From: Spongospora subterranea f. sp. subterranea
Taxonomy: Eukaryota
Direction: 5' to 3'
Assembly (NCBI GenBank): GCA_049724395.1
Contig: JAUGWO010000107.1
Span: forward strand, 62,001 to 126,000
DNA: 64,000 bases
Of the stretch, positions 1,808 through 64,000 are shown one piece after another. Each line of letters begins with the position of its first letter. The stretch's first letter is position 1. The notes under the pieces were generated by a model. That model saw only the letters and a program-made list of their open reading frames with translations, searched no databases and had not been told where the DNA came from. A program made the translations under genes and the position numbers.

Positions 1808-1956
1808 GATTGGGGTAAGCTTTGCTTACTTGATGTTAGCACAAGAGCGATGGAAGGAATCCGATCCTTAGTTTATTGTAAAAACGATTGTAGAAATGTT
1901 CGGGTACGAGCCCGTTGAATCCTTGCACGCGTCGCGTACGGTATCATGCGATACGA
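1808..1956 (-). repeat. 3' LTR of the copia element (degenerate)
   Basis: Shares gcttact..tgttagcaca, ccgatccttagtttattg and tcatgcg with 4588-4680. The adjacent ccttcctc reads as a polypurine tract (gaggaagg) on the minus strand. Confidence 0.6.
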
Positions 1957-4587
1957 CCTTCCTCGGGCGAGTGATCCATAGCTGCACATAGGAAATGTGA
2001 TCCTTTCGATTGAAATCGATCGCACCGAGGAGCTTGGTTAGTTGATTTGCGATCATATCAGCTGTCGAGCACGGTAGTAGAATAACCCGAGCTAGAACGA
2101 AGTCCCGAATGAATCCGATACAAGTAGCGATATGGCGTGTGTTCGCCGGTGTTCGTGAACCGTTCACGAGCGTTAAACATCCTGCATTGTCCTCATATAT
2201 GTCGATCGTCGCGTCGTCTTGGAGTAACTTCATCTTCGATAATAAACCTAGCAGTCTTCGTCGCATCCAATATCGCATTTATCTCGGCTTCAGTAGTAAC
2301 TAAGGCTGTCAGTTGCTGTCGCCTGGAGCTCCAAATAATTGGCCCGTTCGTACTGAATAAGAATCTGGTTGTTGAGTTCGGTTCATACTTGCAATCGTGT
2401 GCGAAGTCGATAATGCATACCCAATTAGAGTGTACTCGCCCTTTTTTCAAATGTGGGTCCAGTGTGCCCTGAACCCTTTAGCAATCGACGGATGCGCTTG
2501 ACGGCGAGGACGTTCGCGTGATTGAGAGTCGTTACGAATCGTGCGGCGTGATGGACTGGTTGTGCAATGTCAGGTCTGGTGCTATTGGCGATGTATAACA
2601 GGCTTCCTATTGCCTCGCGATTAGGAAAGTCTTCGTCTTGACCTGTTTCATCTTGCTGAATTTATTCCTCCTTAATCGCGGGCGTCTTGACTGGGTGACA
2701 GTCGCTCATGTCGAACTTCTGCAGAATACTGGTAAGGTATGCGCCTTGAGATATGACAGCGGTGTCGTTGGTTGCGGTTATTCGCCATCCGACGATGTAT
2801 TTGACTTCGCCCAGAATCTTGACTCGAAGGCTGCTGGACATCTGGGTTTCGAAATTGACGATCTGTTCGAATGAAGTAGAAGCCAACCAAAATATCATCG
2901 ACGTATGTCGCCACAAGAATAATGTCAGCACCATCGTCGTTAATTACTAGGCATGTGTCGTTATTGCTCTTTCTCAAACACATATTAAATGCAAGTGTTG
3001 ACAGGTGATTATACCAAGCGAGACCGGCCTGTTTTAGGCCATAGATCGCCTTGTGGTGTCGGAATACGACAGCAGGTTGTGTGAGATATAGCTCTGCATC
3101 AAGTTCTGCGTTGAGATAACCTGTGTCGACGTCCATCTGTCGGACATGCCATCCTTGCGCCTTAAGGCCAATCAGTGTCCTGATAGTTGCAGCTAGTGAG
3201 AATGTCTCGACGTAATCAACACCTATTCGTAGCGAGAACCCTTGGGCGACCAGGCGTGCCTTATGTCTTTCAACGGTCCCGTCGCTGTTCGTCTTACCTT
3301 TGTACACCCATTTCGACTTAAGCGCCTTTCGACCTGGAGGGAGCTTGCACAACGATCATGTGCCGTTTGTGGTCAGGGATTCAAACTCCCGCTGCATGGC
3401 CTGTTGCCATTGGTGACTGTCGTGGCGATGGATTGCGTCGTCATAGGTGCTGGTTCAACACCCGACCGTGCCGTATGTGTCGGTGGGTTGCCAGCGTAAG
3501 ATCGTTTGTGTGCATCCTCTTCCTCTTGAATACATCATGAGATAGTCGTGTATGTTTGTGCTGTGATCCTGGTTAAGGTTCTTTTGAGTCGAGCGGCCTT
3601 TAGTAAAAGTCGAAAATGACTTGCGCCGCTGATGGCTGGATGTAGTCGATCCTTTTGTCGGTGTAGGAGCGAGCGTTATTGGTTGATCAGTGGTTGGAAC
3701 ATCGGGGGTCAATGGTGTTGGCGTTGGCACCTTCGGCTCTGGTTCCTCAACAGGTGTTTCCGAGGATGCAGCTGCTGTTGGTGTTGGTTCTTCGACCTTC
3801 GGGAGATCGTGTCTTGGATTGACTGTCCTAATGATGGTTGAAAATAACTTACGTCTGAAATTGGAGCACCAGCGTTGGCTAGTGCACTTTGACAATTCGA
3901 ACACTATTTTTATAAACTCGAGTATATCATCGATTCCACCTAGCCTTAACTGCTCTAGTTGATCTTCTGCTGCGATGGCGTCCGCAGCTAATTTACTGTC
4001 GAAGTGGTTCGTCAATGATCACCACGTAAATGCCAGTCAGGACATTCGAACGTTAGTTTATTTATACGTGTCGGAAAGGGACATCTGCAGAAACCGGTGT
4101 GCTAGGTCATGTCGTCGATCGAAGTCGGTGCTTTTCGATTGGTCAATAGGCGTATATGTAGTCGGGATGGGCTTTGTCCCTGCTGCTGCGCGAGCGTAGG
4201 CGATGTAGACCTTCTCGAGATCTTGTTGCGCCTGCTGGAGTTGCTGTCGGTGGGAGACGTTTTCTGGGTCTTCTAGTGCCAACGGCTTGGCGTTGTTTTG
4301 CGCGAGGGCGGCGTCTGTAAGTCGTGAGCGCGCGTCTTTCTGTTCTGTGTTCGAGTCTTGTTGAGGGGCCCTCGTGGTGTTCGAGTGCGGTGGCATCTCG
4401 ATCCCAGTCATGATGTTGTATGCGTTGATGAATTTCATGCCCATGACTGCTTCCTTTCTCCACAAGAAGCAAGTTCTGTGCGGTCAGCGGTTGGGATGAC
4501 AATCTGCTGGATGGAAACCTTTTGATCGCTCATTGCTGGAGCAAAGCGTGTGTTTCAACGAAGAACTCTGCGGTGTGCGAATTGGGC

Positions 4588-4741: not shown

Positions 4742-5336
4742 ATGAAAAGGCAGTCATCTAGTCGGAAACCTGGTCACGCACCGGCTACTACCGGTAGGCG
4801 AAAACCCTCTGATGATAAAGCGAAGGGACCATATCCAGTCCAGAAAGCGCAACTTCAACAGGCTTTCGACTTCTTTGACGCCACCAAAAAAGGCTATTTA
4901 ACGATAGATGACCTGAAGGCGCGCCTTCCGATTTTCTATAAGAACTTACCCAATAGAGAACTCAAATTTCTCATGAACAACAAAACCGAATTAACGTTTG
5001 ACGATCTGCATGAACTGTTATCTGATAACCTATTGAATAATTTTGATCCTGCAGCTGAAGCATTCAAGGTAAGCAACTTACTCTCCAGTAAAGTATAATC
5101 GTACTTACTATTAGAAATACATACAGATTTATGACCCGAAAGGTACAGGATTCGTCAACGTTGGCATTTTACGAGATATTTTCGGACAATTGGGGTTTGG
5201 GGAAGTTACAGACGAGGATATGAAGATCGTAATCGAGACTGCTGATAGCGATAAAGACGGGAAAATTGGGTTAGACGACTTCAAAAACATTCTCAACCAA
5301 AAAGTGGATCTAGGAGTCTTCAACACGCAGTCGTGA
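4742..5336 (+). CDS. Calmodulin/centrin-like EF-hand protein, 2 exons
   Basis: EF loops FDATKKGYLTIDDL, YDPKGTGFVNVGIL and ADSDKDGKIGLDDF. Intron 5069-5126 (gtaagc..atacag) joins the frames; TGA at 5334-5336. Confidence 0.88.
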
Positions 5337-6068
5337 AGCCAATTTCATAGACAGGGTGGTAAGAGATAGCATCAACATTATGGTACACTGACTTCCTTTT
5401 TGTTTATGTAAAGTTTGATAAAATGAAAAACGAGTCCTTAAACCGAAATCCGGTATTAGTAAGAACGTGAGATTTTATATGTCGTCAAAACACACATCTT
5501 CGGACCTCGTGAACGGCTGCATGGAGTATCAAGGCAACCCTTAATATATTTCAACTATGAAGGATTTCGAATCTGCATGGTATCCCGAACCCGATTCAAA
5601 AATATCAATAACATTAATACTAAGATCAGGTCTTCGTTTTTGAGGAATTGATGAAATTTGACAACTTGAATAGTGACAATTTGGATCGAGATAGCTAATG
5701 AAAAATACCCTGTGAAGATTCAATCCTTCGTAAAGCGAGCTTCTCGACAAACGAATAAGGTCGCAGAGAGTGATTTGGTCTGCGCAGAAACAATGAATGC
5801 GGGTGGTAAACTTTAAGTTTTCCATTCTTCGCGTTTATAGATTACTTGAACCACTATCGTATGAAACATGATGGTTTGGCTGCATTAGCCGAACACTATG
5901 GAGTAATGTTTATCGTATCGACCATATACTCTTGACCCTTCGCTTAATGCACCTTTACAATCGGATTAAGCGCACCAACACAATAAACCCTTGCTGAGAT
6001 ACGCCCGCAACGTTCGATTATTCCACGAAATCATTCAAAATATACGTGGCCCTGTACCTGCACTTGCA

Positions 6069-7280
6069 ATGACGCCTGAGGAGATCGAGATGAGGCTGCG
6101 AACTCTACTCCCAGCCCAGGAGAGATCAAGACCCGTGGAACTTCAAGCTATACCAAGAGGGATGGAGGCACTTCCGAGAAGCATAGATAGATCCCAAGCA
6201 GCCATCGATGAATTTCTAAGCAATCTTTCAGCAATTAAAGGGGATCAGTGCCAAATTCATCAAGATACCTGATTTCATTGATGGAACCCGCAAAGTGACA
6301 TACGATTTCAAGGATGATCAAATGCTATCAAGCCCTGCAATCAACCTCACAGAGATGCCAAATGATGATATAGTGGCGCTGGGAAGACTCGTCATGCCTA
6401 TGTTTGCATTAGGATTCTCCCAGTCCGAAATAGCTGCTCTGTTTGTGTTAGCGTACAACCTGAAGAATCCATCTGGAGACCGCTCCAATGTGTTGACCGG
6501 AACAGACGACATAGAGCTTGACTCTGACAAACCATATGACGAACTTGATGACACTATTTTTTATATAATGGCCACCGAACATGTGAGAACGACCGGAACA
6601 ACTGATGTTGTACAGGAGTCTGCAGCATTTTCTTATCTTGCTGCCTCTGCTCGGCTCTTCACCAAGTCTGAGGAAAACTACATAAAGGCATTCATTTTTC
6701 GCGATTTTATGGATCTCCTATGATCATCCATCCTCCTGTTCCCAATAAAGAAGCGCTGAAGACATTGACGCATGGGTTCCGGAGACTCTCTGAAAGCATT
6801 CGGACTCAGAAGATTCCTTTATGAGTTACATCTTGCCAATACGGGGATGCACATTGTGAGTATATTTGCAAAGATCTGTGGTGTTATGATCTGCTCGCGA
6901 GATTGTTGTTGATGGTGATAGACTCAAAAGAGCATTCTCGCCAGGTTGAGGCTCTCTGTGCAATGATAGAGCTAATTATGTCTGCAGATGACATGCACAA
7001 AAAGAAAATGTGGGGGTATGGAAGACTTTTTGATGAAACGTTCATGTCACCACTTAAAAAAAAATCCTGTCCCCTCCCACATACTCCCTTTGCATCTGCC
7101 TTGAAAAGCGAAGCTGCTCAATCTAACCAGAACATCTTGGACATAGCGCAGTTGTCATATGTCAGCCAGAATAGGAAGTACGGTGATGCATCTGGACTGG
7201 CTATAATAAAGTCGATCAGGAAGTTCCACCATGAGGAGGACCAGTTTCGCCAGAACAGGATGCGATTTGACAAAAAAATC
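6069..7280 (+). pseudogene. Endogenous viral element: plant-type rhabdovirus (varicosavirus-like) nucleoprotein/coat protein, frameshifted
   Basis: Joining frames gives AAFSYLAASARLFTKSEENYIKA, F.DFYGSP, GLRRFLYELHLANTGMHIVSIFAKICG (6800-6885), MWGYGRLFDETFMSPL(K/Q)..KSC and NQNILDIAQL. These match, from memory, the conserved motifs of plant rhabdovirus N proteins in the correct order. Intronless, with several indels. Confidence 0.8.
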
Positions 7281-8237
7281 CAGTTGGGCGGCATGCAATG
7301 TGGCAGTACAACCATGTTAACAAAGGGAATATACTTCCGCCATCAATTGATACTGTAGATCAGTCCCGATTGATTGTTGTGGTTTTGGTCAATAAATAGC
7401 GACAGTGTCAAGACTCTAACACTGATCCTTTCCTTTGTCATAGACCTTAATTCGCTTTTTTTGGCCTGAGGTATTCGACGTCACTGACCTATGTTGCAGT
7501 TGATGATAAGATGGCAAGTAAAGCTCGAGTCATCCCCATTTGAAATTTGGGACCGCGTACCAACATGGTGACCGATTTTTAATATCAACAGATGATGAAG
7601 GATTCTCTAAGTTAGCGCTAATTCTGCTGCCACAATGCATGATTTTGCCGTCACCGATCACAGACCGAAACGGCCGATTTTGTTTCCCAAACCTCAGCCC
7701 GTTCTGGGCAAATCTGATCCTACCGTGTCTCTTAGCTAAGTTACTTCACAGGCTGATTCTGAAGGATCCGAATTTGGTTTCAATCGGTCGTCCAAACAAT
7801 CCGTCTGGCTCCGCCGGAGGTTTGCAGAACCCTTGAAATGCACGATGCCACATCTGACGAACTAACCAAAGGCAATTGTAGTGATAAGCGATTTCACAAA
7901 AACAACTATTGCAGTGTAGCAAACAAAAAACTATCACTAACCGATGATTGCGCCCATTTCCATTGGCAAGAGTCAAAATCTGCAGTTGTTCTCTGTACGG
8001 TTTCGAGTGTTCTTGTTCCTGATACTTTGGCCATATGTTCGAGCAAACCTTTCTGCAACAAATGCCATCAATTGCCAAGGATTCTTGATGCAGCGAGAAG
8101 AGGTGATGATCTACCATCACGACATATCCAGATTGTTATCACTTATGATTAATATCATCGATCTTTCTCTCACGTGTTCAAATTCGACTGGGACCAGTGC
8201 CGATACGTCTGATTGCGTTACCGCTATTCGTGATCAT

Positions 8238-8515
8238 ACATTGCTGTTAACCACTGTGATACAGGGACTCACTCTGCAATGACTAGCGGTACCGTTGTCA
8301 CATTGCTGTTAACCACTGTGTAATAGGGGCTCACTCTGCAATAACTAGCGAAACCGTTGTCATTTTGCTGTTACCCACTGTGTAGCAGGGACCCACTCTG
8401 CAATGACCAGCGAAACCGTTGTCATATTGCCCACTTGGGTAACAGGGACTCACAAAATCGTTGTCATATTGCTATTACCCACTGTGCTACAGGGACTCAC
8501 TCTGCAATGACTAAC
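8238..8515. repeat. Degenerate ~62-bp tandem repeat, about 5 copies
   Basis: Recurrent cattgctgttaaccactgtg..agggactcactctgcaatgactagcg..accgttgtca. Confidence 0.8.
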
Positions 8516-9291
8516 AAAACAGCACCCTGTAGGGCTCATATGCTCACCCTTGACTTTTACAAGCGAATCAAGTTAAGATACCTTGTTTAGAACACTATAG
8601 AGACATGTAGAAGTGCCAAATGACTTGAATTGAAATTGACGGCACATAGCGCAACAGAGGTTGGCGATGACAGAAAACAATCTCTCTTGGAAAGGATGAG
8701 CTGGGCCCGGTGAGCAAACATCCTAATGATTGAATCGGATTTTGAATTTTTAGCGCTTGTGCTATGCTGCGATCTATGGCATCAAGATGGTAAACATTGA
8801 TGCAGAGTTGAACTGCCGCAAATGATAGTGAAGTGCATATGCCGAAATAAAAACTGTTGAAGTTATTTTGGTATTACTGGATATTCTCATCCTAAAAATA
8901 GCAAATTAACCATGATGTTGTTGCTCACAAGGTGGTAATGGATGGGTTCTCTGTTTACTGCCATCCAGCTCATAATCATCTCTGACATCCTCATTTTCAA
9001 TTAAGCATTTGAGATCAGATTCGAACGACCTGTCGGGTCAAAAACAGGAATACTTTGAAATTTACCGAACCAATGCGAGTTTGAAAAGAGATATTTGCAA
9101 TTAACAGCAGGTTCTTGATTCACTGCCTATGGTCTTTATTATCAAAAGGCAAAAATTAAACGCTGACTTGAGTCGACCTGTTTTGCGTCCTTTTTTGTTA
9201 CACTTTCAAATCAAAGGCAGAGTGCGGACCGCGGATTTGCGGACCTATCGTGACTTTGAAGAAACCGCGCAACAGTATAGCTGAAAATTCC

Positions 9292-11986
9292 ATGATGACA
9301 GAAGGTAATCCCGATAATACCCATAAACCATTGGGATTATCTAATTCAACCTCCTTTGTCTCTGCTGAACACATGTTGGATCTGAATTCATGGCTGGTTT
9401 CGCAAGGGTTCATTTTCCCAGAACACGTTTGTGTTCTGCCTTCGGGCGGTAAAGGAAATGGCCTTTATCTCACCGCCGATATCGGTCCTGAACTGCCGGT
9501 CATCGAAATCCCATTCCGATTCGCTCTCACTATTGAATCTGCCAAATCTTCACCGGTACCACAAAACCTGTGATTTGAAAAGTTCCGCGACTTTCTCGTT
9601 TAAACTATTGAGTTTTTAGATAGGAAAAGTGCTGTTGGGGATGGGAGCCAGCCAAAAAACAGTAATGAGAATCTGGTTGATCAGCGAACGGATGATAGAC
9701 GGTTCAAATTTTGGTCCCTATTTGCGTTCACTACCTGAGACGTATTCGGATCCATTATGGTGGAACGACAACGATATCAACGCTCTTCGGGGAACGAATT
9801 TATTCATGGCCGTCTCATCTAGGTATGCCACCAAGACCGTAATCGTTCATGGAATATAATGACCCACAGGCGACAAGAAATTCAAACTGAGTTTAGCCAG
9901 TTCTTAGAGCCGATTGGTCGCCTTCATCCTGAGCTTATTCCAGCTCAAGGTTGTTGTCTAGAACGGTTGATCTGGGCACACTCTCTGTTGAATTCCAGGG
10001 GGTTCCCCTCGTCTTTGGGCGGGGTTCCCGACGCTTCTGTCGGCTGTTTATTGCCATTTGCCGATCTGTTCAATCATCGCAACAGCGGCCGGACAACGTG
10101 CCAGGAATGGCACATCACTGCTAATTCTGTTGTCTTCCGCGGACTGAGAGATTTTGATGCCAAATCAGGTGAAGAGATCTTCACAAACTATGGCGCCAAA
10201 TCGGTATGGAGTCATTAGCAACTTCAAAGTTTCGTTTGTAATTTGGGTTATTGTCTTAGCAATCAAACATTAAGATTGGATTTTCTGAATTCTAGTTTCC
10301 CCAAATGAGAATTATGGTATAATGAAGTAGTTCGTTAATGGCGTTCTTCTTCTCTTCAAACTGAACGAAGTTTCGCAAACCACGCAAATTCAATTTTCGC
10401 TGCGACAAATACGGTTTATTCTTGACTCAATAACTTATTCTTGCCTGGTTTAGAACGAAGAATTTCTGTTGGGATACGGGTTTACGATAGCCGATAATCC
10501 ACACGATCATCTAACTGTCATGTTATCGTCAATTGATATGAACGAACCACACAGCTCTTTCCAGATGTCGCTCCTCAACAAAGTTCCGTCTGTCCATTAC
10601 CTCACTCGGACCTCAATTCCATCCTCTTTCATGCAAGCATTGCGCATCAGCGTTTTGACCCCGGTTGAGGCGTATTCTCTTCCGCTTCATAGCGACTTAT
10701 CAACTTCTGTGAGCGTTGAAAATGAACTCGCCGTTTTCGATCTAGTCCTTGCACTTCTTCGCCGATATCGTCGCAGAATTGAACTCGTTCTCGAAGAGGA
10801 AAAGGAAAAGCCCCTTGTGAATGTCAATGTTCAAAACGCTGCTAATTACCGTCAAGGTCAACATGAAATCATCATCGCCTGCATCAAAAAGTTCACCGAA
10901 ATGCACAATGAGTTCGTCGACACGAATTGTAAGATGCCGGTGCCTGTGAAAGTCGAGTCCATGTTTAGTTCCGTTCACGGCGTCGTTGCTCGCAAAACTA
11001 TTGAGCGTTGGGAAACGATTCTATCAATTCCTGGGGATCATTTGCTGGTTCCCAAATCTGTTTGTTTAGCCTGGCCGGCTCTGTCATTGCTGAGGGACCT
11101 AGGCGAGAACGTCATCTTGGCGTTATACCTTTTCCGAGAGATTTCCTCTGGACGTGAACCATTTGTCTCGATGATTACTCCAAATTCTCCCATCCTTTGG
11201 TCAGATTGTGATCTGCAGCTTCTGGGACCGAGCACAGTTCCGGCCGTTGCCCTGGCGATGGATGATCTGTTTGAGTGGCAGTCTATTCACGAGCATTTGA
11301 TCAATCTAGAGGAGCCGCTATTTCCCACCAATGATTTCACTCAATCTGAATTTATTCGCTGTCTGTTGATTGTGGAATCGCATTCATTATATCTGGAAAT
11401 TGACGGCGTCACAACTCTTTGTCTTCTCCCGATTCCTTGCTTGCCCATCCATAGTGCTTCCTCCCCCAACGCCGTCTTCACGCTGGAAGGTGATGAATTA
11501 CTGTTAACTGCACGAACTACTATCTTTTGCGGAACTCCAATTCTCGTGATTCGCGGACGATCGCTGGCAAACGATGAACTTTTGGTGCATCACGGTCAGG
11601 TCCTCGAAGACGATAATCCTCCAGTCTTGATCGATTTAGACTCTATTGCCACGATGGCGTTTGGCGAAGGACGAGTGAATATGCGCTGTGAAGAATTGGG
11701 TGGTATGCCACATTTGTTCATTGGGCGGTATGGGGTTCCAGAGCGACTTCATCACGATCCGGAATTCCTTTCTAAGATGTTGAAGGCGACGGCAGAACTG
11801 TTTGGCTATGACATTGATGACTTAGCAGTTGTCAAGCGACCATCAGACGTTCTCGCTGGCATTGAATCACCAGAGGACATCGCGATCTCTTACCGAAATG
11901 CGATCCTTAGTCTGATTCATAAGGTGCAGAACACGTTGGATCCCATTGAGGATCGGCGAAACAATATTAATCAAACGGTGAACTAG
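9292..11986 (+). CDS. SET-domain lysine methyltransferase (SETD3/SETD4/LSMT class) with a second, degenerate SET module
   Basis: GKGNGLY, FGPYLRSLP..PLWW, WAHSLLNSRGF, LLPFADLFNH, EEIFTNYG and LLGYGF. The second module has HGVVARKTI..ILSIP, SPILWS and NDELLVHHG. Introns lie near 9556, 9823 and 10204-10453. Confidence 0.82.
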
Positions 11987-16763: not shown

Positions 16764-18062
16764 ATGTTCGCTCTAATTACTTTTGTTATGACTCTTACAT
16801 GTTCTGTTTGTGCAAACATGTCTGCTCCGAGAACGCTAATTGTTATCGACGGTCCTCAATCAAACTTCGCCGGTTTTATGGAGGGCTTAAGGCGGGATTT
16901 GCATCACAATATCTCCGTTATTGACAAATCAGTGCCGCTTATCGATTTCGGTGAACGCGTTTATGACAACGTTGCGCTCCTGGGAACTATTGATGGAGTA
17001 TTTTCTACTCAAAACCTTCTTGATTTTGTCGATCTCGGTGGTAATTTACTGGTTGCCAATTCGGATCCCGGGAAGACTACCAGAAACTTGTCATCAAAGT
17101 GCGGTTTTACCTTTGACAGTGAAAGGGTGAGAAACATCCCTGTATGAATTCAACAGTTGTTTATTTTTCACACCACTTAGAGTGCTGTCATTGATGACGA
17201 CAATTCTTTGGACTCATTTCGCAAAATTTATGGAGTTGATTGTGCCAATAATGGCGGGATAAATATCAAAAACAGTTCGATTGCGTACAGAGGAATCGGG
17301 CAAGTTCAGAGTCTGATGTCGTCCACCGAGAAGTCATTTGCGTTTTTACCTGGAGACGTCTCTACCTATTCTATCGCTGCAGATGGATCGATCATTTCAG
17401 CTGGACAAGAGCTAGTTTTGATATCTGCATTTCAAGCTGGCAATAATGCGCGAATTTTGGTCTCGGGCTCTTCAGATATGTTCACCGATCAATTTTTTGC
17501 CATCAAATCATGTGAAAATCGTAGATTCGCGCTTGAAGCTGCTGCGTGGACCTTTGGACAAAAGGGTATTCTCAGAGCATCGAATATCCATCATCACCGC
17601 ATCGATCACGCTGATGACCACACACCTCCTAAACAGTATACTGTGAACGATACCGTTGTATATCATGTTGATATTGAAGAGTTTGACGGGTTTTCCAATC
17701 GCTGGAAACCGTTTATTGCAAAAAAAAACGATATGCAGCTCGAGTTTGTAATGATGAGCCCGTATATTCGTGTCCCTCTTAAATCATCCAAATCGGGCCA
17801 CTACTCGTCGACGTTCACGGTTCCGGATGTTTATGGCGTGTTCAAGTTCAAGGTCGAATATGATCGTCTAGGACTGTCCAAGCTAGTGTTGTCCACAACG
17901 GTTCCTGTCCATCCGAAACGCCACGACGAGTTTGAGCGCTTTATTGTTAGCGCATTTCCTTATTATGTCTCTGAGTTCACAATGATCATAAGCTTCCTAC
18001 TTTTCTCAGTAGTCTATTTGCATCACACAGACAATGAATGTAATCGGGCAGTTTCAACGTAA
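16764..18062 (+). CDS. DDOST: Oligosaccharyltransferase 48-kDa subunit (OST48/WBP1/DDOST)
   Basis: Signal peptide; FVDLGGNLLVA, QAGNNARILVSGS, QLEFVMMSPYIR, PDVYGVFKFKVEY, RHDEFERFIVSAFPYY and a C-terminal TM helix. Intron at ~17127-17180. Confidence 0.95.
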
Positions 18063-26126: not shown

Positions 26127-27618
26127 CAGTTTATTATTATGACGATATCATCTCGCAGTTTATTATCATTACGATACATCCCTGTCGCAGTTTATTATCA
26201 TGACGATACATCCCTGTTTATTATCATCAATACATCCCTGTCGCAGTTTATTATCATGACGATACATCCCTGTCGCAGTTTATTATCATGACAATACATC
26301 CCTGTCGCAGTTTATTATCATGACGATACATCCCTGTCGCAGTTTATTATCATGACGATACATCCCTGTCGCAGTTTATTATCATGACGATACATCCCTG
26401 TCGCAGTTTATTATCATGACGATACATCCCTGTCGCAGTTTATTATCATGACGATACATCCCTGTCGCAGTTTATTACCATGACGACACATCCATGTTAT
26501 TCATCTCGCAGTTTATTATCATGACGACACATCCCTGTTATCATCTCGCAGTTTATTATCATGACGATACATCCCTGTCGCAGTTTATTATCATGGCGAC
26601 ACATCCCTGTCGCAGTTTATTATCATGACGATACATCCCTGTCGCAGTTTATTATCATGACGATACATCCCTGTCGCAGTTTATTATCATGACGATACAT
26701 CCCTGTCGCAGTTTATTATCATGACGATACATCCCTGTCGCAGTTTATTATCATGACGATACATCCCTGTCGCAGTTTATTATCATGACGATACATCCCT
26801 GTCGCAGTTTATTATCATGACGATACATCCCTGTCGCAGTTTATTATCATGACGATACATCCCTGTCGCAGTTTATTATCATGATACATCTCTGTCGCGT
26901 TTATTATCATGGCGACACATCCCTGTTATCATCTCGCAGTTTATTATCATGACGATACATCCCTGTCGCAGTTTATTATCATGACGATAGATCCCTGTCG
27001 CAGGTTATTATCATGACGATACATCCCTGTCGCAGTGTTTATTATCATGACGATACATCCCTGTCGCAGTTTATTATCATGACGATACATCCCTGTCGCA
27101 GTTTATTATCATGACGATACATCCCTGTCGCAGTTTATTATCATGACGATACATCCCTGTCGCAGTTTATTATCATGACGATACATCCCTGTCGCAGTTT
27201 ATTATCATGACGATACATCCCTGTCGCAGTTTATTATCATGACGATACTGTATCCCTGTCGCAGTTTATTATCATGACGATACATCCCTGTCGCAGTTTA
27301 TTATCATGACGATACATCCCTGTCGCAGTTTATTATCATGACGATACATCCCTGTCGCAGTTTATTATCATGACGATATATCCCTGTCGCAGTTTATTAT
27401 CATGACGATACATCCCTGTCGCAGTTTATTATCATGACGATACATCCCTGTCGCAGTTTATTATCATGACGATACATCCCTGTCGCAGTTTATTATCATG
27501 ACGATACATCCCTGTCGCAGTTTATTATCATGACGATACATCCCTGTCGCAGTTTATTATCATGACGATACATCCCTGTCGCAGTTTATTATCATGACGA
27601 TACATCCCTGTTATCATG
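26127..27618. repeat. 32-bp tandem array, roughly 45 copies (gacgatacatccctgtcgcagtttattatcat)
   Basis: Directly visible period of 32 (e.g. agtttatt at 26341 and 26373). Occasional variant units carry ttatcatctcgcag; the 5' end is degenerate. Confidence 0.97.
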
Positions 27619-50059: not shown

Positions 50060-51884
50060 ATGAAAGGTCATTCAGTAGCCTTATTTGTGTTAGTGGGTGC
50101 CCTCGTGTTCGTAAACATCGCTTATGCCCAGTGTGGGCGCGCTCCACGTCCTGACAACCGCTGTGGACCCAGATACGGATTTGCTGACTGCAGACCACGT
50201 CAATGCTGCGATGAGGCGGGAAGGTGACTTCGTTGCTTAGCTAACTGGTCCGGCATCAAATTGTTGAACAGTTGCGGCGCGACGCCTAGACACTGTCGGC
50301 ACAATGAATGCGAAGTCGACACGACGTTTTTGCGCATGCTGCTCGAGAACGATGACGACTCTCGGCGCAATGCTCGAAGGACAGGTCCCAGTAACAGTCA
50401 ACCTCCTAGGCGAACGGATCGTCATGGCGATGGTCGCCGTCCAAGCCGTGACGATGACGACGGTAATGACATTCCTCCTCGGCGAACAACACGCCAAGGC
50501 GATAGTCGCCGCCGTGATCATGCCGATAACACTCCTCCTCGTCGGACGACACGTCAAGGCGATGGCCGACGACCTAACCGTGACGACTCCAACGTTGACG
50601 ACATTCCGAATCGAAACCGTCGGCCACCTTCTCGACCTCCTCGTCAAACAACTCGTCGCGAGGCACAAGCGTCCGACGGATTGGGACCACGCGTTTCGAT
50701 CATGAGCCTAACAGATCGTCAATTACTTGAGCTTCGTGAAGCCATGACTAGGTTCATGGAAGGTGGAGTAAATAGTGATTATGTGAGGCTGGCAGCTGAT
50801 CATGGCCGGCCTAACTATTTCTGCCCGTAAGCTCTCTTTGCCTATCTTGTCTTTTTGCATCATCTAATATCTATTCAGCCACGGTAGTCTCGATTTTGTC
50901 GTATGGCATCGGTGGGCAGCATTTCTATCCCTACATATCTTCAACTGATTTACGGTTGGGTTTGCAGGCGGTATATTGGACGATTTGAGAAGGCTATCGG
51001 CATGGCGCTTCCATATTGGGATTGGACAACTGACCCTCTTCCCGAAGCGTTTACTAATCGGACATACGTCAATAGCAAGGGTAGATTTTTACGTAATCCT
51101 CTGTTTAGTGGAATTATACCCGAACGAGGCCAAACCACCCGATCTGTCAGACCAGATTTACCTATGCGGAGCTTCGGGGCAACAGTCGCACGAGCTCAAG
51201 CTCAAAGTTCTTTCAGAAGATTCAGTTCGACATTAGAATCCGTTCACGATTCGGTATCAATGGATTTGCAATTTCCTTAAGGTCGGGGTCTTATGTACGG
51301 CTTAGATTCATGGTGGTCTGGGCGGGTCTATGGCCATTGTAGGAATTGCTTCATACGATCCGATTTTCTGGTTTCACCACTCGTTCGTTGACATGTTATG
51401 GTGGCGCTGGCAGTTAAGGAACCCAGATGCCGAATACAAAGGGGAGGCAATAGGCGATATTAAAGACTCGGCTGGGGTTGGCAACGGCAGAGCAATCATC
51501 GCCGACACGTCCGCCTGGCGTCGTGGACGTTCGCGAACTCAAGTCCGGCAAGCGGAGAGCAGTTCTGCGAGCGATGCCTTCACTGAACCGCAGCTATTTC
51601 TGATTATTAACAACGTTCCGGCCGTAAAAGAGTCAACGAAGATTGTAGTGACCGTGGACAATATTGAATTAGGGTCTGCGATTGGATTCGGTATGGGCGC
51701 TATGAAGAAACCGATGTCCAAGCAGGTGGTCATTCCAGTCACTGAATCTTATCAAAAAAAGTTCTGGGGAAAATCCACAACAGAACTTACTAAGAGAGCA
51801 AAAGTAACGAGAACAACAACCGACAACAAACATATTGAGAATCTCAATGACATGAGTGTTATTTTGAAATGGGAGACCGTCTAA
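50060..51884 (+). CDS. Secreted tyrosinase/polyphenol oxidase with an N-terminal hevein (CBM18) chitin-binding domain and an R/D-rich linker
   Basis: Signal peptide; DNRCGPRYGFADCRPRQCCDEAG.CGATPRHC; CuA ADHG..CP|HGSLDFVVWHRRY and LPYWDW; CuB ESVHDS|IHGGLGG.M..ASYDPIFWFHHSFVD; four introns. Confidence 0.9.
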
Positions 51885-59497: not shown

Positions 59498-60622
59498 AGA
59501 CGTTTCCGGAATCACGATGAAATCGATTAAGCAGCGGATTGCGGAATCCAATATGAAATTTACCCGAGATCATCGGTGGGGTATGCCTAAGGTGTGGCAA
59601 AGTTTTTGATCAAGTGCCTGCTATCCCTGTTTTGTGACACTAACCGTGGCATAGTGTCGTGCGTGCGTCACGCCAAGCGGTATTTAGAAAAACATGAATT
59701 ACCGGCAGATGGTAGCCGGCTTCTCAAATCAATCGTGCTCCAAAAGGGTATCGTATTGTTGGATTTCCGAAATCCTAAATGTCACAAAGGAGGTAAAAAC
59801 GTCGGGGATCCTGGCAACGGGCGTTTCTACATCAATTAAGGTTTCGTTAAACAAAGCGCTGGTGGAGATGTTTAAATCTCTAAAGCGGCTCGGTTCCATG
59901 ATACAAGCTGTTGATGAGTGGCAACCGCCAACAGACCGGCGTCGGGCCATAGATTCTCAACAGTGTTGGAATCGCTTTCGGCTGTATAATTTTGTATTGA
60001 TGCAACATTTGGAAATACTCGATTTGAACGAGGCGTTTCAAGCGTTTGACGACGCGCTATACAATGCTGTTACATCAGGTTTGTAAGGACATTCAACGAT
60101 GCGTTGTGGACTATAATGAAACATCCATTAGATCTGGATGCGTTCAAAAATACAGTTTTATCGTTGGCGGGCATTAATTATGCGCGGTTGCAACAAAAAC
60201 GCCAACCTGGCGATCCGGAACCCATGGTTCACTGATGTTTAGGGATTGAACGTCTCCACCAGCGCTTTGTTTAACGAAACCTTAATTGATGTAGCAACGG
60301 GCGTTGCCAGGATCGCCCGACGTTTTTACCTCCTTTGTGACATTAGGTTTCGGAAATCCAACAATACGATACCCTTTTGGAGCGCGATTGATTTGAGAAG
60401 CCGGCTACCATCTGCCGGTAAATCATGTTTTTCTAAATACCGCTTGGCGTGACGCACGCACGACACTATGCCACGGTTAGTGTCACAAAACAGGGATAGC
60501 AGGCACTTGATCAAAAACTTTGCCACACCTTAGGCATACCCCACCGATGATCTCGGGTAAATTTCATATTGGATTCCGCAATCCGCTGCTTAATCGATTT
60601 CATCGTGATTCCGGAAACGTCT
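59498..60622. repeat. Near-identical inverted repeat, ~385-bp arms (59498-59884 / 60238-60622)
   Basis: The arms are reverse complements; mirrored ORFs MAKFLIKCLLSLFCD appear on + (59594) and - (60526). A partial third copy lies at 60642-60736. Confidence 0.95.
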
Positions 60623-60736
60623 AAAAAAATATAAAAAAGTATCACAAAACAGGGATAGCAGGCACTGACTTTGCTTGATCAAAAAGTTTGCCACACCTTA
60701 GGCATACCCCACCGATGATCTCGGTAAATTTCATAT

Positions 60737-61249: not shown

Positions 61250-61443
61250 GATCCATAGGTTCCGCCTTTTCAAGATCGGAGAGAAGCGCGAAGAAAAAAT
61301 AATACCAGATGTGCCACAGAAATCCAAAGTACATCTCAGAGAAAATTGAACAGACAAATTCTTGACAGATTCTGCCTGTCCTGACCAACAGGAAGCGCAA
61401 AACAATGACCGGGACTCTAAATTTCACAGGATAACTCTATAAT

Positions 61444-63075
61444 CCACTGTTTCCAAACGGATTTGAGGGAAAGACTGACAGCTGTTCCATCACCAGTCGG
61501 ACCCCTCCACTCACACCTGACCACTGCTCCACTGTTTCCAAACGGATTTGAGGGAAAGACTGACAGCTGTTCCATCACCAGTCGGACCCCTCCACTCACA
61601 CCTGACCACTGCTCCACTGTTTCCAAACGGATTTGAGGGAAAGACTGACAGCTGTTCCATCACCAGTCGGACCCCTCCACTCACACCTGACAACTGCTCC
61701 ACTGTTTCCAAACGGATTTGAGGGAAAGACTGACAGCTGTTCCATCACCAGTCGGACCCCTCCACTCACACCTGACCACTGCTCCACTGTTTCCAAACTG
61801 ATTTGAGGGAAAGACTGACAGCTGTTCCATCACCAGTCGGACCCCTCCACTCACACCTGACCACTGCTCCACTGTTTCCAAACGGATTTGAGGGAAAGAC
61901 TGACAGCTGTTCCATCACCAGTCGGACCCCTCCACTCACACCTGACCACTGCTCCACTGTTTCCAAACGGATTTGAGGGAAAGACTGACAGCTGTTCCAT
62001 CACCAGTCGGACCCCTCCACTCACACCTGACAACTGCTCCACTGTTTCCAAACGGATTTGAGGGAAAGACTGACAGCTGTTCCATCACCAGTCGGACCCC
62101 TCCACTCACACCTGACAACTGCTCCACTGTTTCCAAACTGATTTGAGGGAAAGACTGACAGCTGTTCCATCACCAGTCGGACCCCTCCACTCACACCTGA
62201 CAACTGCTCCACTGTTTCCAAACGGATTTGAGGGAAAGACTGACAGCTGTTCCATCACCAGTCGGACCCCTCCACTCACACCTGACAACTGCTCCACTGT
62301 TTCCAAACGGATTTGAGGGAAAGACTGACAGCTGTTCCATCACCAGTCGGACCCCTCCACTCACACCTGACCACTGCTCCACTGTTTCCAAACGGATTTG
62401 AGGGAAAGACTGACAGCTGTTCCATCACCAGTCGGACCCCTCCACTCACACCTGACCACTGCTCCACTGTTTCCAAACGGATTTGAGGGAAAGACTGACA
62501 GCTGTTCCATCACCAGTCGGACCCCTCCACTCACACCTGACCACTGCTCCACTGTTTCCAAACGGATTTGAGGGAAAGACTGACAGCTGTTCCATCACCA
62601 GTCGGACCCCTCCACTCACACCTGACCACTGCTCCACTGTTTCCAAACGGATTTGAGGGAAAGACTGACAGCTGTTCCATCACCAGTCGGACCCCTCCAC
62701 TCACACCTGACCACTGCTCCACTGTTTCCAAACGGATTTGAGGGAAAGACTGACAGCTGTTCCATCACCAGTCGGACCCCTCCACTCACACCTGACAACT
62801 GCTCCACTGTTTCCAAACGGATTTGAGGAAAAGACTGACAGCTGTTCCATCACCTAATCCACGTACACCTGACCTCTGCTTTATTGTTTCCAAAAGGATT
62901 TGAAAAAAAGACTGACAGTGTTCCATCACCTGTCGGACCCCTCCACTCACACCTGACCCCTCCACTCACACCTGACCCCTGCTCCACTGTTTCCAAACGA
63001 GTTTGGGGTGAAATGAAGTGGAGATAAAAGAGACTGACAGCTGTTCCATCACCTGTCGGCCCGCTCCACTCACAA
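61444..63075. repeat. 85-bp satellite, about 16.5 near-identical units plus a degenerate tail
   Basis: ccactgtttccaaacggatttgagggaaagactgacagctgttccatcaccagtcggacccctccactcacacctgaccactgct; the ORF track repeats every 85 nt. Confidence 0.98.
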
Positions 63076-64000
63076 CTCTTCAATTGGAACGGACTGTTGT
63101 TCCGTGACTGGAGGCGCTAACGTTTTACTCACTAGAACTAATCCGGAGCGATTAGTTTGGTGTTACGGCGCTGCCCAAACCACGATTGATCGTTGGGCAA
63201 TGGTTCAGACATGAAGCGGAATAATCAATAGGGCAATCGATATTCCAAGCCTAGATACATGACCAGGGATCTAGATGACTGCTCTCTGACCTGGCTCAGA
63301 TGCACAATTCTCCTGACGGTCATCTCGATCGTAATCATTCCAACTTCGACGGTGGAGTTCGCCCAGAAGACCATATTCGGGTGCACGGGATGCCTGACAT
63401 TGATGGACCTTAGGGAAAATCAACAGCAAAAATCTCGATATTCGATTGGCCAGAACGTTATCAAGTATTTGGCGAACAATGGGCACTTTTTGGCACAGAA
63501 TATTGTGAAATATTATGGTGTAAGGTCGAAAGACGATGGCTTAATCAAAGATTTTCACGATTTTGAATCGAAATGCAAGAAACCGTTCTCGATGGATGAA
63601 GCCAAGCAGGTTGCACGGGAATTTGAGGCACATATGCAAATCCTGACAGCTCTTCAATGGTTTATTGAGGACAATGAAAGAAAACCCAGTGGTGACCTTA
63701 GGCAGCTTCATGCTGCCGTGAATTGCCATTCAATGATTGCCAGATCTTTAGAAATTCTGCCAAAACCTTTGGTTCAGTATCCTACCACACGTTTAATCGC
63801 ATTCGCGGTTGCCGCCTGGTTATTGATAGCTGTAATTAGCTGGAGGGGTTACGTCGCCGTTCATGCACTCTACCAACAAGAACCGGATCGATTCTTTGAC
63901 GGATATCAATACGCGCTCACGGTCTGGAGCAATTGCACAAATTGGGTTCTACAAACAGCACGAGACAATAATAAGGTCTCAGCCAGCGTTTGGGCGCCAA

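What the first reader, a model, noticed from the sequence alone, without database searches (positions are those of the whole stretch)
6069..7280. Fossil nucleoprotein gene of a plant-type (varicosavirus-like) rhabdovirus in a protist genome
Seen: an intronless ~1.2-kb coding remnant. It is broken by an extra G near 6240, a missing base near 6707, a deletion near 6775 and another shift near 6900. Reassembled, it reads AAFSYLAASARLFTK..FRDFYGSP..GLRRFLYELHLANTGMHIVSIF..MWGYGRLFDETFMSPL..KSC..NILDIAQL. Knowledge: these blocks match the N/coat protein of plant rhabdoviruses, best the varicosaviruses. These negative-strand RNA viruses have no DNA stage, and lettuce big-vein-associated virus is vectored by a zoosporic root parasite. 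Inference: the flanking genes are protist-type with short introns, so viral mRNA was reverse-transcribed and fixed in this organism's own genome. That implies such a virus was transcribed inside a probable plasmodiophorid, suggesting an unrecognised host or vector relationship and possibly EVE-derived antiviral small RNAs.
Basis: partly seen in the sequence, partly recalled or inferred. Interest (0 to 1): 0.88.

Follow-up and report, generated by a model that had tools for sequence, protein, structure and literature searches.

The report
Plant rhabdovirus fossil in root parasite
A broken copy of the coat (nucleoprotein) gene of a varicosavirus-type plant RNA virus sits in the chromosomal DNA of a clubroot-related parasite, likely copied from viral RNA that got into the parasite inside infected plant cells, which hints that such parasites may carry or host a virus group with almost no known vectors.

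Summary
Confirmed: 6069 to about 7280 (+) is an intronless, frame-broken nucleoprotein (N) gene of varicosavirus type. Two fragments pass the cut-off of Pfam PF03216. Of 29 relatives looked up, 11 are varicosavirus N, 13 are plant-genome copies and 5 are unnamed; none carries a protist or fungal name. The insertion is real: one gap-free contig joins it to the spliced SET-domain gene downstream at single-copy depth, and a second study's DNA shows the same lesions and two alleles. The host groups with Plasmodiophora brassicae (OST48, 100/100, 63% identity), so it is probably another plasmodiophorid. The gene looks dead (four breaks; 6 of 8 variants non-synonymous) but has no stop in 373 homologous codons, so decay is modest. 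Not shown: that the virus was transcribed or replicated in the protist. Uptake of viral RNA from infected plant cells, or transfer of a plant's own viral fossil, remain open. No poly(A), target-site duplication, end signals or small-RNA evidence. Such fossils are known in plants; my ten searches found no report from this host group.

The parts
6069..7277 (+). Broken varicosavirus-type nucleoprotein (N/coat protein) gene; endogenous viral element. Right end approximate (homology ends 7223-7277).
   Evidence: Pfam PF03216; phmmer and tblastn to varicosavirus N; CpG observed/expected 0.61 against a window mean of 1.04
6237..6243 (+). Frame break 1
   Evidence: frame change in translation and tblastn; no gap in X1 or X2 contigs
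6694..6701 (+). Frame break 2, with loss of several codons relative to relatives
   Evidence: alignments to P0001 and P0003
6777..6789 (+). Frame break 3, with loss of roughly 12-16 residues relative to relatives
   Evidence: alignments to P0001 and P0003
6892..6899 (+). Frame break 4; lies in the stretch (6840-6955) where run X2 shows two alleles
6844..6852 (+). GMH motif of plant rhabdovirus N and plant N-like fossils
   Evidence: translation; motif named in PMC3136472 passages
7017..7070 (+). C-terminal conserved block matching the published YaRifdxxxfxxLQtkxC motif, two to three positions changed
   Evidence: translation; PMC3136472 passages
5428..5556 (.). Multi-copy host repeat upstream of the element; short-read contigs break here
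   Evidence: depth about 8 times the flanks and loose ends at both borders
7559..7718 (.). Piece of a second dispersed repeat downstream of the element
   Evidence: partial contigs with loose ends at 7559 and 7718
4742..5336 (+). Left host neighbour: EF-hand protein gene, probable 59-nt GT..AG intron at 5069-5127
   Evidence: Pfam EF-hand; intron inferred from sequence
9292..11986 (+). Right host neighbour: SET-domain / Rubisco-LSMT-like methyltransferase gene with 64-, 47- and 250-nt GT..AG introns
1868..4540 (-). Decayed Ty1/copia-type retrotransposon, multi-copy, 1.5 kb upstream; limits approximate
   Evidence: Pfam RVT_2 E 3.7e-35 on 2672-3352; raised depth and divergent copies at about 3950-4540

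Best explanation
This is a broken varicosavirus-type nucleoprotein gene integrated in the chromosomal DNA of a Plasmodiophora-related parasite, likely copied by one of the parasite's own retroelements from viral N messenger RNA that was present in the parasite while it lived in virus-infected plant cells, and now probably an inactive, inherited pseudogene. Shown: identity as N; linkage to a spliced host gene at single-copy depth; four frame breaks; two alleles; an abrupt change from host-like to CpG-poor composition near the start codon. Inferred: the messenger-RNA template (only N is detected, intronless, bounded near the coding frame), reverse transcription by a host retroelement, and inheritance through spores. 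Left open inside this explanation: whether the RNA was made in the parasite (infection, or transcription from an entered nucleocapsid) or swallowed ready-made from the plant cell; I rate these about even.
For: N identity. Relatives: 11 named viruses of 29 looked up, all listed in the varicosavirus survey PMC9608074. Integration: X1 contig 5528-10500, 3 substitutions, 0 gaps, depth 22.9 against 23.7 for the EF-hand contig; X2 contigs 5528-6869 and 6926-8394 with 0 gaps; two alleles at 6840-6955 in X2. Host: OST48 groups with P. brassicae 100/100 at 63% identity, against 39-45% to five plants. N only: none of 51 flanking frames of 32 aa or more reached a Pfam cut-off. Boundary: CpG observed/expected 1.2-1.3 in 5201-6100, 0.46-0.69 in 6101-7300; the 17 of 604 other windows that are as low all overlap one satellite. 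Dead gene: four breaks; 6 of 8 classifiable variants non-synonymous. A copia reverse transcriptase remnant lies 1.5 kb away. Plasmodiophorids hold plant-virus RNA and proteins inside their cells (PMC1866226, PMC11784302; abstracts) and phytomyxids engulf host contents (PMC10953367; abstract).
Against: No poly(A) tail, target-site duplication or varicosavirus end signal at the element's ends; an A7 run at 7272 is only a hint. The copia remnant is separated from the element by a host gene, so it is no direct evidence of the copying enzyme. The tree gives the element no supported sister and cannot tell a viral from a plant-genome donor; the highest identity in the tree (46% over 321 columns) is to a Kalanchoe genome copy. 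Plant N fossils are CpG-poor too (0.35-0.55 in four related loci), so composition does not separate the routes. Varicosavirus P2/P3 have no recognised domains (PMC9608074, passage), so the blank Pfam scan of the flanks is weak. The upstream link to the EF-hand gene is not bridged by any one contig (break in the repeat at 5428-5556). Host placement rests on one gene 10 kb away.
Confidence: 0.72

Rival explanations
1. A plant's own varicosavirus N fossil (RNLS) was transferred to the parasite, as DNA or as a plant transcript; the parasite never met the virus itself.
For: 13 of 29 looked-up relatives are plant-genome copies, several of full N length; nearest row by path and identity is a Kalanchoe copy; phytomyxids engulf host contents (PMC10953367, abstract).
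Against: No supported grouping with any plant copy; Chamaemelum virus 1 is equally near by path (1.51 against 1.50). Composition is host-like (CpG 1.2-1.3) up to about the start codon, so no plant-like flank is seen upstream.
Confidence: 0.2
2. The element was kept by selection, as a source of antiviral RNA or for a time as a protein-coding gene.
For: No stop in 373 homologous codons; low-depth contigs over 6687-7245 and 5952-6103 in runs guessed to be RNA, one sample.
Against: Four frame breaks; 6 of 8 variants non-synonymous, as expected without selection on the protein; the runs' RNA status is a guess and contigs give no strand or level; no stops is also expected if under about 7-10% of sites have changed. 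This reading is compatible with the best explanation and concerns only present function.
Confidence: 0.12
3. Assembly artefact: plant or viral sequence joined wrongly into the protist contig.
For: The upstream junction is not bridged by one contig; one of the two DNA runs may be the window's source.
Against: Gap-free contig from 5528 into the SET gene at the depth of the neighbouring host contig; same lesions in a second DNA study; alleles shared between X2 and X3. A negative-strand RNA virus has no DNA stage (established knowledge).
Confidence: 0.03

Closest known systems
Rhabdovirus N-like sequences (RNLS1) in plant nuclear genomes (Chiba et al. 2011, PMC3136472; passages read)
   Same: Varicosavirus N alone, integrated in nuclear DNA, with the GmH and YaRifd...LQtkxC blocks; N and L rarely found together.
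   Different: Host here groups with Plasmodiophora (Rhizaria), not with plants; no supported sister among the 10 plant-genome rows in the tree.
Varicosavirus N proteins (Chamaemelum virus 1, Zostera-associated varicosavirus 1, Vitis varicosavirus, Melampyrum roseum virus 1; PMC9608074, passages read)
   Same: 35-41% identity over about 340-390 aligned positions, in the range the paper lists between distinct varicosaviruses; same Pfam family.
   Different: DNA copy, four frame breaks, two internal deletions, no gene-junction signal at its ends, no L or other genes detected; donor virus unsampled.
Plant viruses carried inside plasmodiophorids (benyvirus in Polymyxa betae; PMC1866226, PMC11784302 abstracts; PMC5023674 passages)
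   Same: Viral RNA and proteins inside the protist; replication in the vector suggested but unsettled.
   Different: Those are positive-strand viruses; the cited review assigns Varicosavirus to Olpidium vectors; here the trace is a heritable genomic copy of a negative-strand virus gene.

Membership tests
Varicosavirus-type nucleoprotein (PF03216) | Match to the family model above its curated cut-off | tested here: met
   48.3 and 29.9 bits against 25, in 2 of 4 fragments scanned
Varicosavirus-type nucleoprotein (PF03216) | Nearest named viruses are varicosaviruses rather than cyto- or nucleorhabdoviruses | tested here: met
   11 of 11 named viruses among 29 of 52 hits looked up occur in PMC9608074 (7 seen in Table 2, 1 more in Table 1, 3 by occurrence count only); 23 hits not looked up
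Varicosavirus-type nucleoprotein (PF03216) | Conserved blocks GmH and YaRifdxxxfxxLQtkxC | tested here: met
   6844-6852 and 7017-7070, the second with changes
Varicosavirus-type nucleoprotein (PF03216) | Supported placement inside the genus against other plant rhabdovirus genera | tested here: inconclusive
   Sits in an unresolved 21-row group (85/94); no starred set holds it; no cyto- or nucleorhabdovirus outgroup was available
Genus Varicosavirus (as a virus) | Gene junction 3'-AU(N)5UUUUU G CUCU-5' at gene ends | tested here: not met
   No match at the element's ends; one match at 5419-5435 lies 634 nt upstream and straddles the edge of a host repeat
Genus Varicosavirus (as a virus) | L polymerase, further genes, mostly two-segment RNA genome | not testable with these tools
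   No whole genome held; only the 64-kb window was searched
Non-retroviral endogenous viral element | Continuous with host chromosomal genes at host depth | tested here: met
   Downstream side bridged by one contig at depth 22.9 against 23.7; upstream side by the assembly only
Non-retroviral endogenous viral element | Inherited, with decay and allelic variation | tested here: met
   Four breaks in two DNA studies; two alleles in X2; variants shared with X3
Non-retroviral endogenous viral element | Marks of retroposition (poly(A), target-site duplication, fused retroelement) | tested here: inconclusive
   Only 8-10-nt chance-length repeats across the flanks; an A7 run at 7272; repeats 510 nt upstream and 280 nt downstream
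Non-retroviral endogenous viral element | Empty orthologous site in related species or isolates | not testable with these tools
   No eukaryotic relatives' genomes are held

The most novel reading that the evidence does not exclude
Plasmodiophorids are, or were, true hosts and vectors of a lineage of varicosaviruses: the virus entered, was transcribed and multiplied in the parasite, and this fossil is its genomic record. That would supply a missing vector class for a genus with one known vector and give the first heritable evidence that a plant virus is expressed inside a plasmodiophorid.
Probability: 0.35. Interest if true: 0.85.

Novelty: new variant of a known kind. Interest (0 to 1): 0.66.

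Why it matters
Two open questions meet here. Only one varicosavirus has a known vector (Olpidium), and a survey of public data found no varicosavirus in fungi or arthropods and suggested vectors may be rare or absent (PMC9608074, passages). Whether plant viruses multiply in plasmodiophorid vectors is still argued (PMC1866226, PMC11784302; abstracts), and those known are positive-strand. A varicosavirus gene inherited in a plasmodiophorid-type genome shows that sequence of this virus group reached the parasite's nucleus at least once, and names a concrete place to look for live virus. The limit: it is a single dead gene, and an indirect route through a plant's own fossil is not excluded.

Tried and rejected
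No whole genome was held, so other copies or an L fossil elsewhere in this genome could not be sought. Word-based protein searches with the two fragments found nothing (0 of 140 and 0 of 948 candidates); the full HMMER search did. No solved structure matched the fragments or the 26-row profile, so no fold was attempted. Viral contigs: 3 pattern matches, none confirmed. Metagenome contigs: 4 of 110 matches confirmed (L001-L004), AT-rich, 28-44% identical to the element, none closer than the named relatives, none with a second viral gene evident; they were left out of the trees. Junction-like motif at 5419-5435: matches the published consensus in the BrV1 form, but its last 8 bases belong to a multi-copy host repeat and it lies 634 nt before the start codon; treated as probable chance. 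GAGA at 5996 as a messenger start: rejected, 195 such words on the + strand of the window and host-like CpG there. The low-CpG stretch at 60.7-62.6 kb as a second viral insert: it is an 85-bp satellite. Expression: no RNA holder is listed as such; contigs from runs guessed to be RNA cover parts of the element at depth 2-12 and carry its lesions, so they come from the locus and not from an intact virus, but they cannot show strand or level. The first tree (33 rows) returned only its quick form and was replaced (26 rows; the repetitive P0051, hits under 340 aa and six unlooked-up long hits left out, and named cluster members used for four rows). The protein atlas could not read the host query. 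Three look-ups of earlier scan findings gave nothing relevant. The host species was not determined.

Full report
Observation. The window holds an intronless coding remnant on the + strand from an ATG at 6069 to about 7223-7277. Two of four stop-free fragments scanned pass the curated cut-off of Pfam PF03216, rhabdovirus nucleoprotein: 6220-6720 at 48.3 bits (E 1.3e-12) and 6825-7355 at 29.9 bits (E 4.9e-07). phmmer of the first fragment against 1.84 billion proteins returned 52 hits at E <= 0.001, 28 at <= 1e-10. tblastn of these relatives against the window shows homology in two alternating frames and four breaks, near 6237-6243, 6694-6701, 6777-6789 and 6892-6899. The second and third also remove several codons. 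Read through with X at each break, the element matches 53 of 54 fetched proteins, the best at 38-41% identity over about 350-390 positions.

What the relatives are. I looked up 29 of the 52 hits. Eleven are N proteins of named viruses (Melampyrum roseum, Chamaemelum, Vitis, Zostera, Apera, Lupinus, Guizotia, Linum, Ophrys, Didymochlaena, Caladenia); all occur in the varicosavirus survey PMC9608074 (7 seen in its Table 2, 1 more in Table 1, 3 by occurrence count only). Thirteen are plant-genome proteins or cluster with them (Kalanchoe, Stephania, Rhodiola, Lotus, Trifolium, Drosera, Lactuca, Phaseolus, Spatholobus, Quercus, Penstemon, Cuscuta, Vigna). Five are unnamed. None carries a protist, fungal, cytorhabdovirus or nucleorhabdovirus name; 23 hits were not looked up. 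The two motifs described for plant N fossils (PMC3136472, passages) are present at 6844-6852 and 7017-7070. In a 26-row tree the element has an end branch of 0.84 (median 0.77), no supported sister, and lies in an unresolved group that mixes viruses and plant copies; its nearest rows by path are a Kalanchoe copy (1.50) and Chamaemelum virus 1 (1.51). The donor is therefore unsampled, and the tree cannot tell virus from plant copy.

Is it integrated? Eleven runs were listed, 8 holding part of the stretch, from 5 studies. In X1 one contig runs from 5528 through the element to the end of the laid stretch at 10500, inside the SET-domain gene, with 3 substitutions, no gap and depth 22.9; the EF-hand contig beside it has 23.7. 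X2, from another study, gives contigs 5528-6869 and 6926-8394 without gaps, and two alleles over 6840-6955: one equal to the window (depth 14.6), one with 3 substitutions and 1 gap (depth 20.7), whose substitutions recur in X3. One of the two DNA runs may be the window's source. The SET gene is spliced at GT..AG introns of 64, 47 and 250 nt in X3 and X4. The upstream link to the EF-hand gene is not bridged by a single contig: both runs break in a multi-copy repeat at 5428-5556. The breaks are real and a chimeric join is very unlikely.

Host. OST48 at 17181-18059 has its best match in a cluster containing Plasmodiophora brassicae PBRA_002973 (63% identity, E 1.8e-111; next hit E 1.9e-56, all others at or under 47%) and groups with it at 100/100 in a 21-row tree, while five plants are 39-45% identical to it and 69-79% to Nicotiana. 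The host is thus a phytomyxid, probably a plasmodiophorid, and not P. brassicae. This rests on one gene about 10 kb from the element; the species was not determined.

Anatomy and age. CpG observed/expected is 1.2-1.3 from 5201 to 6100, falls to 0.46-0.69 across the element and is 0.79-1.03 in 7301-7900; the 17 of 604 other 1.2-kb windows that are as low all overlap one satellite. The left border therefore lies near the start codon. None of 51 flanking frames reached a Pfam cut-off, a weak test because other varicosavirus proteins have no recognised domains. No viral end signal, poly(A) tail or target-site duplication was found; an A7 run at 7272 (one of 10 on the + strand of the window) is only a hint. 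A copia remnant lies at about 1868-4540, beyond the EF-hand gene. The 373 homologous codons hold no stop; if changes were neutral this caps substitution since loss of function at about 7-10% of sites, so most of the 55-65% distance to known N proteins belongs to the donor lineage. Of 9 variants seen between runs, 8 could be classed: 6 non-synonymous, 2 synonymous, as expected without selection on the protein. Contigs from runs guessed to be RNA (one sample) cover 6687-7245 and 5952-6103 at low depth and carry the lesions; they come from the locus, but show neither strand nor level.

How it most likely arose. An N-only, intronless copy bounded near its coding frame is what reverse transcription of N messenger RNA would leave; N-only fossils are the rule in plants (PMC3136472, passages). 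The parasite's plasmodium gives rise directly to spores (my own knowledge), so an insertion in any nucleus can be inherited. I put 0.72 on copying of viral RNA inside the parasite, about evenly split between RNA made there and RNA taken from the infected plant cell; phytomyxids do engulf host contents (PMC10953367, abstract). Transfer of a plant's own fossil takes 0.2.

Against what is known. Varicosavirus N fossils are known in over nine plant families (PMC3136472, abstract and passages). Plasmodiophorids are listed as vectors of positive-strand viruses, Varicosavirus under Olpidium (PMC5023674, passages; PMC1866226, abstract). The varicosavirus survey found none in fungal or arthropod libraries (PMC9608074, passage); it does not mention protists in the passages I saw. 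Ten full-text searches showed no report of such a fossil in a plasmodiophorid; most hits were seen only as listings, PMC11356395 as passages, and subscription journals and supplements of genome papers were not seen, so a prior mention is possible.

Verdict. A real endogenous viral element of a known kind in a new kind of host. It works like, and meets the tested features of, a non-retroviral N fossil; it is not shown to be functional. Interest 0.66; 0.85 if the parasite proves to be a true host or vector (probability about 0.35).

Noticed in passing
window 5428-5556: Short multi-copy repeat with sharp borders; related copies reach depth 225-365 in runs guessed to be RNA. Could be a small mobile element or part of an abundant transcript; only one copy of its first 18 bases in the window.
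   Followed up: partly
window 5419-5435: Exact varicosavirus-like gene-junction motif (BrV1 form) straddling the left edge of that repeat, 634 nt before the N start; treated as probable chance but unexplained.
   Followed up: partly
window 8528-8929: Low-depth contigs in X4 skip 8529-8590 (GT..AG, + strand) and 8774-8928 (CT..AC, - strand) in an intergenic stretch beside a 62-bp tandem repeat at 8238-8430: possible spliced non-coding RNAs on both strands.
   Followed up: no
window 7846-7876: A contig of X3 skips 31 bases without intron ends; strain deletion or artefact.
   Followed up: no
window 61443-62958: Satellite of 17.9 copies of an 85-bp unit, 97% matches.
   Followed up: partly
window 26127-27611: Tandem array of 45.9 copies of a 32-bp unit.
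   Followed up: no
window 59570-60730: Locally duplicated segments: the same short frames recur at 59591/60326 and 59382/60511.
   Followed up: no
window 63232-64000: Open frame of 256 codons or more running off the window, with two hydrophobic stretches; not scanned.
   Followed up: no
window about 50050-51884: Tyrosinase gene (Pfam hit on 51306-51881) apparently preceded by a signal-like stretch, a cysteine-rich module and an Arg/Asp-rich repeat region; possibly secreted.
   Followed up: no
L001 1122-2072; L003 4627-5666; L004 5839-7076; L002 3-1214: Further varicosavirus-like N copies in AT-rich metagenome contigs; L003 has a retrotransposon-like frame just downstream by eye; hosts not determined.
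   Followed up: partly
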